A DNA stretch of 64,000 nucleotides, from assembly GCA_046462475.1 (NCBI GenBank), contig JBKGVB010000033.1, forward strand, positions 7,192 through 71,191, written 5' to 3'. How positions within the stretch are numbered: the stretch's first letter is position 1; the number at the start of each line of letters is the position of its first letter. A program made the translations under genes and the position numbers. Below are positions 6,754-47,869 of the stretch, piece by piece. Source of the DNA: Candidatus Saccharimonadales bacterium. GTDB taxonomy: Bacteria > Patescibacteriota > Saccharimonadia > Saccharimonadales > Saccharimonadaceae. The notes below the pieces were generated by a model. It was not told the DNA's origin and searched no databases. It saw only the letters and a program-made list of their open reading frames with translations.

Positions 6754-6863
6754 CGAGATGTAGCTCAGTCTGGAAGAGCACGCGATAGTTTCTCTCCCCG
6801 GTTAACCGAGAGAGAAGCTTCCTATATCGCGAGGCCGTGGGTTCAAATCCCATCATCTCGACC
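6754..6863 (+). tRNA. tRNA-like gene with a 34-nt hairpin insertion in the anticodon loop; anticodon not assignable
   Basis: - Acceptor stem: CGAGATG/CATCTCG.
- D arm: GCTC-AGTCTGGAA-GAGC.
- Anticodon stem: CGCGA (6781-6785) / TCGCG (6827-6831), enclosing 41 nt instead of 7.
- Variable loop: AGGCC.
- T arm: GTGGG-TTCAAAT-CCCAT.
- Discriminator A followed by CC. Confidence 0.6.
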
Positions 6864-45835: not shown

Positions 45836-45910
45836 GGTCCCTTCGTCTAGTGGTTAGGACACTGGGTTCTCATCCCAGCAACACGGGTTCGACTCCCGTA
45901 GGGATCACCA
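45836..45910 (+). tRNA. tRNA-Glu (anticodon CUC), CCA encoded
   Basis: GGTCCCTTCGTCTAGTGGTTAGGAC..., anticodon arm CTGGG-TTCTCAT-CCCAG, T arm CGGGTTCGACTCCCG, 3' end AGGGATCACCA. Confidence 0.9.
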
Positions 45911-45926
45911 CATTGAATAATAGAAA

Positions 45927-45960
45927 ATAGACTTACCTCGAACGGTAAGTCTATTTTTAT
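45927..45960. terminator. Bidirectional rho-independent terminator (tRNA-Glu and the SMR gene)
   Basis: ATAGACTTACC-tcgaac-GGTAAGTCTAT with an A-run upstream and a T-run downstream. Confidence 0.7.
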
Positions 45961-45981
45961 AATATTTGCACCCTTATGAGC

Positions 45982-46299
45982 TTAGCGATGGAGCGCCTTT
46001 AGCCCAATGATCCCTACAACTATCATCATCAGAAATAGGATCTTAAGTAATGAAACCGGCTCAACGCCCGTAATCATTGCGTACAAGATCGTTAGCGTTG
46101 CTCCGATACCTACCCAAATAGCATAAGACGTTCCGACAGGTAAAGTACGCATTGCATACGCTAGGCCGATCATGCTCAATACTATTGCTATGAAGAAAAT
46201 TAATGTCGGCGTTAGTTTTGTAAGTCCCGCTGATTTTCCGAGAGCTGTCGCCCAGACTGCTTCAAGTACGCCTGAGAGTATTAAGATAACCCATGCCAT
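45982..46299 (-). CDS. sugE: SMR-family small multidrug-resistance/guanidinium exporter (SugE/Gdx-like)
   Basis: MAWVILILSGVLEAVWATALGKS and four TM helices in about 105 aa. The ATG at 46299 is preferred, with GAAAGG 7 nt upstream. Confidence 0.8.
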   Translation of the reverse strand: MAWVILILSGVLEAVWATALGKSAGLTKLTPTLIFFIAIVLSMIGLAYAMRTLPVGTSYAIWVGIGATLTILYAMITGVEPVSLLKILFLMMIVVGIIGLKALHR

Positions 46300-46314
46300 A
46301 TATAAACCTTTCAT

Positions 46315-46358
46315 GGGACGTCTTTTCGATTTGCCTGGTACGTCCGCACTCGTCAGGG
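46315..46358 (-). promoter_or_regulatory. Guanidine-III (ykkC-III)-like pseudoknot riboswitch candidate
   Basis: Minus-strand RNA: CCCUGACGAGUGCGGACGUACCAGGCAAAUCGAAAAGACGUCCC.
- P1: CCUG/CAGG.
- Loop: ACGAG.
- P2: GGACGU pairs with 3' ACGUCC.
- Location: immediately 5' of the SD and start of an SMR gene. Confidence 0.6.
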
Positions 46359-46448
46359 ATTTATACTCTTCATGTATGATTATCGCATATTTCGCAGGCC
46401 GCTACGCTTCATGTGTCTACCGATGCACTTTCTTCGTCCCTTTACATC

Positions 46449-46457
46449 TGTTATAAT
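46449..46457 (+). promoter_or_regulatory. Extended -10 box TGTTATAAT (within CATCTGTTATAAT), 8 nt before the pyk ATG
   Basis: The identical 13-mer occurs at 56076-56088. Confidence 0.5.
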
Positions 46458-46465
46458 ATGTTGTA

Positions 46466-47869
46466 ATGAAGTACAAACGCACCAAAATGCTGGCGACGCT
46501 CGGACCAGCGACTAATTCACGTGAGCTCGTATATCAGCTCATCGAGCGAGGCGTCAATGGTTTTCGCCTTAATTTTAGCCATGGCAGCTACGAAGAGCGC
46601 GACCAGCAGATCACTTGGATTCGCGAGTGCTCCAAGGAACTGCAAAAGCCAGTGGCGATTCTGCAAGATTTGCAGGGACCAAAAATTCGCCTCGGCGCAT
46701 TCGATGGCACACATCCTGTCAAAAAAGACGAGGAATGGACACTTGTCTTTGACCAGCCAACCGACATCGATGCCAAGCGCGTCGAAGTACAGTACGATCT
46801 GAGCGAGAAGATGCAGTCAGGCGAGCGCCTCTATATCTTTGACGGAAAAATCCGCACCGAAGTCACTCATGTAACCTCGCGCGAAGTAACGATTCGCATT
46901 CTCAACGACGGTGTCATTATGCAAAAGAAAGGTATTAATGTACCAGACACCAACTTTGGTGGCGATATTTTAACTCCAAAAGATCTACGCGACATCGACT
47001 ATGGGGCGGGACAGGACATCGACTATGTCGCCCTCAGCTTTGTGCAGTCGGCAGAAGACATCACAACCTTGCGTCAACTGCTTGTAGAAAAAGGCTCGAC
47101 TGCGCAGATCATCGCCAAAGTTGAGACAAAAGCAGCGATCGAAGATATCGAGCTGAAGAAGATTGTCGAACAATCTGACGGCGTCATGGTAGCACGCGGC
47201 GACCTCGCCGTAGAAGTCAGCCCCGAAGTCGTGCCGGTCATCCAGCGCAAGATCATCTCACTATGCCAGGAGTATGGCAAACTTAGCATCGTCGCCACAC
47301 AAATGATGGCCAGCATGGTTGACGCGCCAGAACCAACTCGTGCAGAAGTAAGCGACGTCGCGACTGCCGTAATTTCTGGTGCAGACTGTGTCATGCTGAG
47401 CGATGAAACGGCAAATGGTAGCTATCCACTCGAGACAGTCACCCACATGAAAAAGGTGATTATGTACACCCAGGAAGCGCTTCCGGTCGACGTGACAAAA
47501 TCCCACGATGAATCAACCAAGCAAACAGCCATCAGTGCCGCAGCTGTTAGTCTCGCTGGACATATTCATGCTACGGCGATTGTCGCTGAGACAAAGAGCG
47601 GCAATACAGCCGTCAGTATTGCATCGCAGCGTCCAGCCATGCCAATCATCTCCGTCACAAGCAATCCGCGCGTCTCACAGCAACTTGCACTTATGTATGC
47701 AAACAAAAGCTTCTGCAGGCCAGATGGAGAAAAAGCCGGCTGGGAACTTGCCAAAAATCTTCGCGAATCAGGCTATCTTTCAGAAGGAGATACAATCGTT
47801 CTTGTCTCTGGTAAACAACCGGGTCTCATCGGCGGCACCGACACAATTCGTGTCCGTGTCCTAAATTAG
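46466..47869 (+). CDS. pyk: Pyruvate kinase
   Basis: KMLATLGPA, FRLNFSHG, MVARGDLAVE and MLSDETANG. Confidence 0.9.
   Translation: MKYKRTKMLATLGPATNSRELVYQLIERGVNGFRLNFSHGSYEERDQQITWIRECSKELQKPVAILQDLQGPKIRLGAFDGTHPVKKDEEWTLVFDQPTDIDAKRVEVQYDLSEKMQSGERLYIFDGKIRTEVTHVTSREVTIRILNDGVIMQKKGINVPDTNFGGDILTPKDLRDIDYGAGQDIDYVALSFVQSAEDITTLRQLLVEKGSTAQIIAKVETKAAIEDIELKKIVEQSDGVMVARGDLAVEVSPEVVPVIQRKIISLCQEYGKLSIVATQMMASMVDAPEPTRAEVSDVATAVISGADCVMLSDETANGSYPLETVTHMKKVIMYTQEALPVDVTKSHDESTKQTAISAAAVSLAGHIHATAIVAETKSGNTAVSIASQRPAMPIISVTSNPRVSQQLALMYANKSFCRPDGEKAGWELAKNLRESGYLSEGDTIVLVSGKQPGLIGGTDTIRVRVLN

What the first reader, a model, noticed from the sequence alone, without database searches (positions are those of the whole stretch)
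46315..46358. Guanidine-III-like pseudoknot riboswitch in front of an SMR (Gdx/SugE) exporter
What the sequence shows: the minus-strand RNA is CCCUGACGAGUGCGGACGUACCAGGCAAAUCGAAAAGACGUCCC. It can form P1 (CCUG/CAGG) around an ACGAG loop. GGACGU can then pair with the 3' ACGUCC to make an H-type pseudoknot. The element ends 1 nt before AUGAAAGG, which contains the likely SD (GAAAGG) for the ATG at 46299.

Established knowledge (from memory, to be verified): the ykkC-III consensus is roughly CCGGACGAGGUGCGCCGUACCCGG...AAGACGGCGC. The differences here in P1 (G-C to U-A) and P2 are compensatory. Guanidine riboswitches typically control SugE/Gdx exporters. This class is mostly actinobacterial.

Inference: this is a functional guanidine sensor, possibly acquired together with the exporter from an actinobacterial host. 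The linker (CAAAUCGAAAAG) deviates from the remembered CAGGACAAG.
Basis: partly seen in the sequence, partly recalled or inferred. Interest (0 to 1): 0.6.

Follow-up and report, generated by a model that had tools for sequence, protein, structure and literature searches.

The report
Guanidine-III riboswitch in a Saccharibacterium
A 44-base RNA leader in front of a small guanidinium-exporter gene in a soil Saccharibacteria (TM7) genome is very probably a genuine guanidine-sensing riboswitch of a known, mostly actinobacterial class. It is an ordinary mechanism in an unusual host, and the standard database threshold misses it.

Summary
Minus-strand RNA 46358..46315 reads exactly as described and can form the proposed H-type pseudoknot.

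- **Rfam score:** Rfam's Guanidine-III model (RF01763) matches at 26.7 bits, below its 36-bit gathering score. The window lacks the model's 5' hairpin, which is not part of the crystallised 41-nt aptamer.
- **Core-only model:** I built a covariance model from 54 orthologous gdx leaders, leaving the window out. It hits only this site in the 64 kb: 39.7 bits, E about 3e-9, next best 12.8 bits. Family members score 28.7-67.8 bits and background scores 18.2 bits or less.
- **Conserved features:** every core feature checked against the T. fusca crystal structure is present (A5, C6, G7, A8, G9, G17, U18-A35, A19, C20-G29, AAGAC).
- **Pairing:** P1 keeps 4 of 4 pairs through a G-C to U-A double change. 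P2 keeps 6 of 7.
- **Family covariation:** score 0.274 against 0.083 for shuffles.
- **Downstream gene:** it is Gdx-like (88 bits to Gdx-Clo, about 30 to EmrE). The SD lies 3 nt after P2.
- **Host:** a soil Saccharibacterium. Four other TM7 gdx loci lack the leader.
- **Nearest relatives:** unnamed low-GC contigs, then Micrococcaceae.

Verdict: a new member of a known riboswitch class. Co-transfer from Actinomycetota is plausible but unproven. Ligand response is untested.

The parts
46354..46357 (-). P1 5' strand CCUG (T. fusca nt 1-4)
   Evidence: Pairs with 46337-46334. U at position 3 and A at position 22 form a double change also seen in L082-84 and L030. P1 is paired in 69 of 69 distinct family sequences.
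46349..46353 (-). Core loop ACGAG (A5 C6 G7 A8 G9). C6 = 46352 and G7 = 46351 are ligand-contacting nucleotides.
   Evidence: A5, C6, G7 and A8 are constant in all but three degenerate leaders among the members found. Their roles come from the crystal structure (PMC5696562).
46346..46348 (-). Joiner UGC (equivalent to the third-strand and outer P2 region, nt 10-12). C at 46346 is the unpaired outermost P2 position.
   Evidence: These columns vary across the family. The outermost P2 pair is unpaired in 20 of 69 members.
46340..46345 (-). P2 5' strand GGACGU (nt 13-18). G17 = 46341 contacts the ligand.
   Evidence: Six Watson-Crick pairs with 46321-46316. A15-U38 is a double change relative to the common C-G, and A-U occurs in 5 of 69 members at that pair.
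46338..46339 (-). A19 and C20. A19 partners A5, and C20 pairs with the G at 46327.
   Evidence: Both are invariant in the family.
46334..46337 (-). P1 3' strand CAGG (nt 21-24)
46322..46333 (-). P1-to-P2 linker CAAAUC, then G (46327, the G29 equivalent), then AAAAG
   Evidence: G is present at the C20 partner column in 68 of 69 members. The 6-nt linker is 1 nt longer than the commonest form but within the family range. CGAAAAG also occurs in mycobacterial members.
46316..46321 (-). P2 3' strand ACGUCC (nt 35-40)
   Evidence: The A-C at its 5' end belongs to the invariant AAGAC.
46307..46312 (-). Shine-Dalgarno GAAAGG, 3 nt after P2 and 7 nt before the AUG
   Evidence: In 93 leaders the motif ends 10-34 nt before the start codon, mostly 10-17 nt; the window's distance is 14. 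L084 has the same CA(Y)GAAAGG tail.
45982..46299 (-). gdx (SugE-type SMR guanidinium exporter), 105 aa plus stop
   Evidence: PF00893 at 67.6 bits. SugE is the best NCBIfam match. Gdx-Clo 6wk5 scores 88 bits against about 30 for EmrE.
45924..45957 (-). Intrinsic-terminator-like hairpin after gdx. It is bidirectional and shared with tRNA-Glu at 45836-45910(+).
   Evidence: (14-15 bp stem plus a T run).
46379..46387 (-). Candidate extended -10 promoter TGcGATAAT (weak, inferred). It would put the transcript start about 14 nt before the aptamer.
   Evidence: This rests on reading the sequence only. The strict sigma-70 scan found nothing. The element is unchanged in strain X3, whereas TATAAA at 46365-46360 is mutated there.

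Best explanation
This is a guanidine-III (ykkC-III) riboswitch aptamer, RNA 46357..46316 on the minus strand, in the 5' leader of a gdx guanidinium-exporter gene in a Saccharibacteria chromosome.

Proposed mechanism:
- Shown: the sequence and pairings needed for the fold, and their conservation and covariation in orthologous leaders.
- From the crystal structure of the class: guanidinium binds between the Hoogsteen edges of G7 (46351) and G17 (46341) and stacks on C6 (46352). This locks the H-type pseudoknot, made of P1 (46357-46354 with 46337-46334, plus C20-G29) and P2 (46345-46340 with 46321-46316).
- Inferred by analogy with the class: the folded aptamer withdraws the P2 3' strand from competing pairings with the SD and start region. 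A candidate competing pair is CCCAUG 46317-46312 with CAUGGG 46295-46290. The SD GAAAGG (46312-46307) and AUG 46299 are then exposed and Gdx translation is switched ON. The compact fold may also protect the mRNA from 5'-end-dependent nuclease scanning.

The cassette of leader plus gene is most simply explained as horizontally shared with Actinomycetota.
For: 1. Sequence and pairings are verified.
2. Rfam RF01763 is the only family hit in the leader, at 26.7 bits and E 5e-4.
3. The core-only model R1, built from 54 other leaders, scores 39.7 bits with E about 3e-9. It is the unique hit in 64 kb and lies within the family range of 28.7-67.8 bits, against background of 18.2 bits or less.
4. The training leaders are bona fide. 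Rfam scores them at 40-68 bits, at or above its gathering score.
5. Homologous position: about 147 of 171 SMR loci carry the motif directly upstream of the gene. The window's spacing to the start codon is 14 nt; most leaders have 10-17 nt.
6. Covariation on an alignment not fitted to P1: P1 is paired in 69 of 69 sequences with 11 double-change cells. Overall 91.3% of cells are paired and the score is 0.274, against 0.083 for shuffles (0 of 500 reach it) and 0.100 or less for slid partners.
7. All crystal-structure core nucleotides are present.
8. The downstream protein is Gdx-like.
9. The locus is contiguous in independent soil assemblies. A strain about 2.5% divergent has no change in 46299-46358.
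Against: - The Rfam score is below the curated gathering score (26.7 against 36), and the model's 5' hairpin is absent.
- The outermost P2 pair is a C-C mismatch, and the linker is 1 nt longer than the commonest form.
- Nested-fold energetics are no better than shuffles (z -0.7 and +0.45). That is expected for a pseudoknot but gives no support.
- Family-wide modelling gave no consistent SD-sequestration signal, so the expression platform is inferred only.
- The absence of changes in the strain comparison is not significant: about 1.5 were expected.
- There are no RNA-seq data and no ligand data.
- Other TM7 gdx genes do without the leader.
Confidence: 0.78

Rival explanations
1. Hitch-hiking relic. 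The aptamer arrived with gdx by horizontal transfer and still looks intact, but it no longer regulates in this host. The cause could be promoter placement, loss of the competing structure, or different translation or RNA-decay machinery in Patescibacteria. Expression would be constitutive or otherwise controlled.
For: - Four other Saccharibacteria gdx loci have no riboswitch: L081 and L174 sit directly behind clpB, L172/173 sit beside an ArsR-type regulator, and L170 sits beside a CsoR-type regulator.
- No conserved competing structure could be shown.
- The Rfam 5' hairpin is missing.
- The promoter is not identifiable.
Against: - All core nucleotides and 10 of 11 canonical pairs are intact. 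A 44-nt element free of selection would be expected to lose them.
- The gene's composition (GC3 0.44, host-like or lower) argues against a very recent arrival from a high-GC donor.
- A divergent strain keeps the aptamer and SD unchanged while the immediately flanking bases differ.
- The crystallised minimal aptamer also lacks the 5' hairpin.
Confidence: 0.14
2. Specificity variant. This is a guanidine-III-fold aptamer of the low-GC sub-lineage (window, L082-84, L171) that senses a related cation such as methylguanidine, aminoguanidine or agmatine, rather than guanidine itself.
For: - The class pocket has a side opening and binds substituted guanidines (PMC5696562).
- The sub-lineage has its own leader features: U-A in P1, an A-rich linker and a shared tail.
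- L082 even lacks the G29 partner.
Against: - The ligand-contacting nucleotides C6, G7 and G17 and the whole conserved ramp are unchanged in the window.
- The regulated gene is a Gdx-type exporter with the Gdx-Clo-like residues.
- The differences lie in helices and linker, not in the pocket.
Confidence: 0.05
3. Chance resemblance, or an assembly chimera joining actinobacterial DNA to a TM7 contig.
For: The motif is short, and the Rfam score is sub-threshold.
Against: - E is about 3e-9 with an independent core model, and this is the only hit in the window.
- The position in front of gdx is the homologous one.
- Independent soil assemblies span tRNA-Glu, gdx, the leader and pyk.
- Local GC equals the genome's.
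Confidence: 0.01

Closest known systems
Guanidine-III (ykkC-III) riboswitch, Rfam RF01763; Thermobifida fusca aptamer, PDB 5NWQ
   Same: - H-type pseudoknot with a 4-bp P1 and the C20-G29 pair.
- P2 including U18-A35.
- Identical spacing of nt 1-24.
- Invariant ACGAG, GUAC and AAGAC.
- Ligand nucleotides C6, G7 and G17.
- SD immediately downstream.
- Controls an SMR/Gdx exporter.
   Different: - G3-C22 is replaced by U-A, and C15-G38 by A-U.
- The outermost P2 pair is mismatched.
- The linker is 6 nt, against 4 in T. fusca and 5 in most orthologues.
- C31 is A.
- There is no 5' hairpin.
- Aptamer GC is 0.57, against 0.60-0.79 in Actinomycetota members (0.44 in the low-GC L082-84).
- The Rfam score is below the gathering score.
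- The host is Saccharibacteria rather than Actinomycetota.
Low-GC leader variant in metagenome contigs L082-84 and L171 (Gdx 77% identical; L082 carries a 48C12-like heliorhodopsin)
   Same: - The same CCUG/CAGG P1.
- The same AAUCC 5' flank.
- An A-rich linker.
- The same CA(Y)GAARGG tail and the same 14-nt distance to the AUG.
   Different: - The P2 sequence differs (GUAGCG/CGUUAC).
- L082 has A instead of the G29-equivalent, whereas the window keeps G.
- The L082 contig has 41% GC, and its taxon is unnamed.
Gdx-Clo (PDB 6WK5/6WK8) and E. coli SugE/Gdx guanidinium exporters
   Same: - 105-aa four-helix SMR protein.
- 88 bits to Gdx-Clo over residues 1-103.
- E13, W16, S42, Y59 and W62 at the aligned positions.
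   Different: The protein is below the NCBIfam SugE equivalog cut-off (91 against 126 bits). Transport has not been tested.
Guanidine-I, -II and -IV riboswitches
   Same: They sense the same ligand and regulate the same class of genes, and all are ON switches.
   Different: Their folds are unrelated. No Rfam hit to any of them was found in the leader.

Membership tests
Guanidine-III riboswitch (RF01763) | Rfam covariance-model score at or above the gathering score (36 bits) | tested here: not met
   The score is 26.7 bits. This is an operational threshold, not a structural feature. The model's positions 1-20, a 5' hairpin absent from the crystallised aptamer, are deleted here. Homologous leaders L030 (35.4) and L085 (34.6) also miss it.
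Guanidine-III riboswitch (RF01763) | Significant match to an aptamer-core-only model built from accepted members | tested here: met
   R1 scores 39.7 bits with E about 3e-9, the unique hit in the window. The family range is 28.7-67.8 bits and noise is 18.2 bits or less.
Guanidine-III riboswitch (RF01763) | P1 helix nt 1-4 with 21-24 | tested here: met
   CCUG pairs with CAGG, 4 of 4. The family is 100% paired, with double changes at 3 of 4 positions.
Guanidine-III riboswitch (RF01763) | P2 helix nt 12-18 with 35-41, crossing P1 (H-type pseudoknot) | tested here: met
   Six of 7 pairs form. The outermost is C-C, as in 20 of 69 members.
Guanidine-III riboswitch (RF01763) | Ligand-contacting nucleotides C6, G7 and G17 | tested here: met
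   C 46352, G 46351 and G 46341. Their roles come from PMC5696562.
Guanidine-III riboswitch (RF01763) | Conserved core ramp: A5, A8, G9, U18-A35, A19, C20-G29, A32-A33-G34 | tested here: met
   All are present at the aligned positions.
Guanidine-III riboswitch (RF01763) | Located just upstream of an RBS of a guanidine-related gene | tested here: met
   The SD lies 3 nt after P2, and the gene is gdx.
Guanidine-III riboswitch (RF01763) | Selective guanidinium binding and ligand-dependent switching ON | not testable with these tools
   No RNA runs exist. This needs in-line probing or a reporter assay.
Guanidine-III riboswitch (RF01763) | Major-groove triples of the third strand (G9, G10, U11) with P2 | tested here: inconclusive
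   The G9 triple partner C16-G37 is conserved. Positions 10 and 11 are U and G here and vary across the family. Sequence alone cannot judge the geometry.
Gdx subtype of SMR transporters | SMR fold (PF00893) and closer to Gdx than to EmrE/Qac | tested here: met
   PF00893 scores 67.6 bits. Gdx-Clo scores 88 bits against 28-30 for EmrE. SugE is the top NCBIfam match.
Gdx subtype of SMR transporters | NCBIfam SugE equivalog cut-off (126 bits) | tested here: not met
   The score is 91.3 bits. The model is centred on enterobacterial SugE.
Gdx subtype of SMR transporters | Guanidinium/proton antiport activity | not testable with these tools
   This needs a proteoliposome or growth assay.

The most novel reading that the evidence does not exclude
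A Patescibacteria (Saccharibacteria) epibiont carries a working guanidine-III riboswitch and gdx cassette shared by horizontal transfer with Actinomycetota, the phylum of known TM7 hosts. This would be the first natural ligand-inducible translational switch documented in the Candidate Phyla Radiation. It would imply that guanidine is a stress at the epibiont-host interface. It would also offer a 45-nt native part for inducible expression in these genetically intractable bacteria.
Probability: 0.5. Interest if true: 0.5.

Novelty: new member of a known kind. Interest (0 to 1): 0.4.

Why it matters
- **Distribution of the class.** Guanidine-III is described as essentially actinobacterial, with 237 representatives (PMC12186494). 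I found no paper in the searchable library that links guanidine riboswitches to Saccharibacteria or Patescibacteria.
- **Range and transfer.** A conserved copy in a TM7 genome extends the class's range. It adds a regulatory RNA to the list of traits that Saccharibacteria may share with Actinomycetota by transfer.
- **Annotation blind spot.** Low-GC variants without the 5' hairpin fall below Rfam's gathering score, so standard pipelines will not annotate them.
- **Practical use.** A recent perspective on Patescibacteria notes that no inducible expression system exists for them and names riboswitches as candidates (PMC11665869). A native, cell-permeable-ligand ON switch would be an obvious part to test.
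- **Limit.** None of this changes what is known about how the class works.

Tried and rejected
- **Whole-window Rfam gathering scan:** only three tRNAs. The element is visible only with permissive thresholds.
- **Nested MFE folding** of the aptamer and of the leader plus ORF start: no better than shuffles. This is uninformative for a pseudoknot.
- **Family-wide partition-function modelling of SD accessibility**, with and without the aptamer sequestered: no consistent difference (means 0.45 and 0.48). I therefore do not claim a specific anti-SD.
- **Long-range pairing in the window.** The MFE fold pairs CCUGA.GAGUG with codons 5-8 (CAGG reaches into codon 9), and CCCAUG with CAUGGG. Neither pairing is conserved in L084, so I treat them only as candidates.
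- **Sigma-70 promoter scan:** nothing. TATAAA at 46365-46360 is rejected as the -10 box because strain X3 mutates it.
- **Synteny test for an insertion site:** pyk neighbours differ in all three TM7 relatives, so no clean empty site could be defined.
- **The window's own Gdx** is not on record in the contig index.
- **Naming the organisms of L082, L085 and L175:** the cluster look-ups gave no names. tblastn of those contigs' ORFs against the TM7 and actinobacterial DNA I held was not decisive. Only the 48C12-like heliorhodopsin hints at a freshwater actinobacterium.
- **L175 as a decayed riboswitch relic:** there is no R1 hit and the alignment is ambiguous, so this is not claimed.
- **RNA-seq evidence:** no runs found.
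- **Primary papers:** Sherlock & Breaker 2017 and Richards & Belasco 2021 are not held. Their findings are cited only through the review PMC12186494 and through PMC5696562.

Full report
**1. The observation.**
- CCUG (46357-46354) pairs with CAGG (46337-46334).
- GGACGU (46345-46340) pairs with ACGUCC (46321-46316).
- The two helices interleave, which is the topology of an H-type pseudoknot.
- Three bases further on lies GAAAGG (46312-46307), then a 7-nt spacer, then AUG at 46299.
- That AUG, not the in-frame AUG at 46314, is the start of a 105-aa SMR protein. The homologues begin MAW/MSW, the Pfam match begins at residue 6 of the longer ORF, and the collection's own gene call is 105 aa.

**2. 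Is it more than chance?**
- A gathering-threshold Rfam scan of the whole window lists only three tRNAs.
- With permissive filters on 46250-46470, the only match is RF01763 Guanidine-III. It scores 26.7 bits (E 5e-4 for that 221-nt search), against a gathering score of 36.
- The alignment shows why. The Rfam model starts with a 5' hairpin (positions 6-20) that is simply absent here, and the helices carry A/U substitutions.
- The crystallised, ligand-binding T. fusca aptamer is a 41-mer without that hairpin (PMC5696562; sequence in PMC7373991).
- I therefore built a core-only covariance model (R1) from 54 non-identical leaders of homologous SMR genes, leaving the window out.
- With filters off over all 64 kb on both strands, R1 finds one site: 46357..46314, at 39.7 bits and E about 3e-9. 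The runner-up scores 12.8 bits at E 0.07.
- On 174 fetched loci the model separates cleanly. Leaders score 28.7-67.8 bits and everything else scores 18.2 bits or less.
- Rfam's own model scores the high-GC training leaders at 40-68 bits, so they are accepted members. The variants L030 and L085 fall just under the threshold at 35.4 and 34.6, and L082 is not listed at all.

**3. Orthologous leaders.**
- The Gdx protein's relatives are overwhelmingly from Actinomycetota: Nocardia, Rhodococcus, Mycobacterium, Arthrobacter, Rothia, Microbacteriaceae and others.
- A tolerant pattern finds the motif in 93 leaders, ending 10-34 nt before the start codon and mostly 10-17 nt. The window's distance is 14.
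- The model raises the count to about 147 of 171 SMR loci.
- The hits that my pattern missed differ only at loop position 9 (ACGAU or ACGAC). They add a further P1 variant, CCCG/CGGG.

Pair counts on an alignment of 69 distinct hits made with R1, which does not model P1:

| Feature | Result |
|---|---|
| P1 | paired in 69 of 69, with 11 double-change cells at three of four positions (C-G to G-C or U-A; G-C to C-G or U-A) |
| U18-A35 | invariant |
| C20-G29 | 68 of 69 |
| Inner P2 pairs | 12-21 double changes each |
| Cells paired overall | 91.3% |
| Covariation score | 0.274, against 0.083 for shuffles (0 of 500 reach it) and 0.100 or less when partners are slid |

The window's U3-A22 is shared with L082-84 and L030. 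Its A15-U38 is one of five A-U at that pair. Its only unpaired P2 cell is the outermost pair, which is unpaired in 20 of 69 members.

**4. Check against the crystal structure (PMC5696562).**
- Nucleotides 1-24 have identical spacing in the window and in T. fusca.
- These are all present: A5, C6 (46352), G7 (46351), A8, G9, G17 (46341), U18, A19, C20, the G that pairs with C20 (46327), and A32-A33-G34-A35-C36.
- Guanidinium is bound by the Hoogsteen edges of G7 and G17 and stacks on C6, so the pocket is intact at the sequence level.
- The differences are a linker of 6 nt (4 in T. fusca, 5 in most orthologues, 6-7 in L037, L103 and L074), C31 replaced by A (as in several mycobacterial members), and variable third-strand positions 10 and 11.

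**5. The gene and the genome.**
- The protein matches PF00893.
- Its best NCBIfam match is SugE, at 91 bits, below the 126-bit equivalog cut-off.
- It matches the Gdx-Clo structure (6wk5) at 88 bits, against about 30 for EmrE. E13, W16, S42, Y59 and W62 are at the aligned positions. That these residues form the Gdx binding-site network is from my memory of the Gdx-Clo papers.
- A terminator-like hairpin follows the gene (45957-45924).
- The window is a bacterial chromosome carrying atpA, gltX, der, pyk and two-component systems.
- Its AtpA is 87% identical to named Candidatus Saccharibacteria proteins and 97% identical to an unnamed relative.
- Its pyruvate kinase is 72-84% identical to Saccharimonadales proteins.
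- GC is about 0.49 throughout.
- The stretch occurs in soil metagenomes.
- Independent assemblies span the junctions. X1 covers 46257-46545 identically. X3, from another study, covers 45905-46651 with 19 differences. None of these lies in 46299-46358, though about 1.5 would be expected, so the result is consistent with constraint without proving it. Three lie just upstream at 46365-46368.
- The cassette is therefore not an assembly chimera.

**6. Origin.**
- The window's AtpA has relatives at 90-97% identity, but its Gdx has none above 79%.
- Three TM7 relatives have other genes beside pyk.
- TM7 genomes carry gdx-like genes in at least three other contexts, none with the leader. L081 and L174 (a Saccharimonadales UBA2112 record) sit directly behind clpB. 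L172/173 sit beside an ArsR-type regulator, and their Cu-ATPase clusters with 'Ca. Saccharibacteria bacterium 47-87'. L170 sits beside a CsoR-type repressor.
- A neighbour-joining tree of this short protein has no support values. It puts the window in a clade of low-GC 105-106-aa proteins with L172 and L170, next to the riboswitch-bearing L082-84/L171 group and then Arthrobacter-type proteins.
- The WIN, L084 and L171 leaders are homologous beyond the aptamer: the AAUCC flank, the A-rich linker and the CA(Y)GAARGG tail.
- L082 carries a heliorhodopsin that matches 48C12 at 360 bits. From memory, 48C12 came from a freshwater actinobacterial fosmid, so this is a hint only.
- The gdx gene has GC3 of 0.44, slightly below its neighbours at 0.48-0.60. 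A recent arrival from a high-GC actinobacterium is excluded. A low-GC donor, or long residence in the genome, fits.
- Co-transfer of leader and gene between Actinomycetota and Saccharibacteria is therefore plausible. The direction and the date are open.

**7. Mechanism.**
- For the class, guanidine binding stabilises the ramp and triplex of the pseudoknot. It is proposed to destabilise competing structures and expose the RBS, switching translation ON. The authors call this 'less well established'.
- A review adds protection from RNase E scanning (PMC12186494).
- In the window the SD starts 3 nt after P2. A nested fold offers a competing hairpin, CCCAUG/CAUGGG, around the SD and AUG. It is not significant and is not conserved in L084.
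- Family-wide modelling gave no consistent signal.
- I therefore commit to the ON-switch reading by homology, at a confidence of about 0.78, and mark the expression platform as inferred.

**8. Verdict.** This is a new member of a known kind: a bona fide-looking guanidine-III aptamer and gdx pair in a Saccharibacterium, invisible at Rfam's gathering threshold.
- No paper in the searchable library links guanidine riboswitches to Saccharibacteria or Patescibacteria.
- A perspective on Patescibacteria names riboswitches as candidate inducible systems that are still lacking.
- Interest is moderate at 0.4.

Noticed in passing
window 6754-6863 (+): A tRNA gene with an insertion in the anticodon loop. 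Rfam tRNA scores 53.2 bits with an unaligned 40-nt block, and default ARAGORN misses it. ARAGORN in intron mode calls tRNA-Arg(CCU) with a 32-nt insertion at position 33/34. The insertion itself folds as a hairpin, UUCUCUC/GAGAGAA. An interrupted tRNA in a Saccharibacterium may deserve a look of its own.
   Followed up: partly
L081 4001-4318 and L174 4001-4318 (Saccharimonadales UBA2112-type contigs): A separate TM7 clade of gdx-like genes (70% identical) starts 2 nt after the stop of clpB. It has no leader or riboswitch and is presumably co-transcribed with clpB.
   Followed up: partly
L170 441-794: A gdx homologue (79% identical; 85% to the TM7 copy in L172) lies divergent from a CsoR-family (PF02583) repressor gene. 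The intergenic region holds the perfect palindrome ATACCCCCCGGGGGTAT. This looks like a protein-based regulator replacing the riboswitch.
   Followed up: no
L175 4900-5000: The leader of a 74%-identical gdx on a contig of GC 0.49 retains GGUAC...AAAAUAACGUUGUGACGCGAAAGGA but lacks the ACGAG core. It may be a decayed riboswitch relic, but the model finds nothing and the alignment is ambiguous.
   Followed up: partly
L046 2945-2987, L099 3682-3724, L040 2943-2986: These actinobacterial leaders carry substitutions in the ligand-binding loop: AUGGG or AGGAG instead of ACGAG, and ACACGAC instead of ACAAGAC in L046 and L099. They may be inactivated or re-specified guanidine-III copies.
   Followed up: no
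L125, L132-135, L138-142, L145, L148, L149, L151, L152, L155 (metagenome loci): In this group the guanidine-III hit lies about 390 nt upstream of the matched SMR gene rather than about 55 nt upstream. The aptamer is followed directly by another SMR-like start (MPWII or MSWVI), which suggests two-gene SMR operons, possibly paired subunits, under one riboswitch.
   Followed up: no
window 46466-46487 (+): The pyruvate kinase ORF can start at 46466, but the collection's own call is 460 aa, that is from the ATG at 46487. The later start would widen the divergent gdx-pyk intergenic region to about 187 nt.
   Followed up: no
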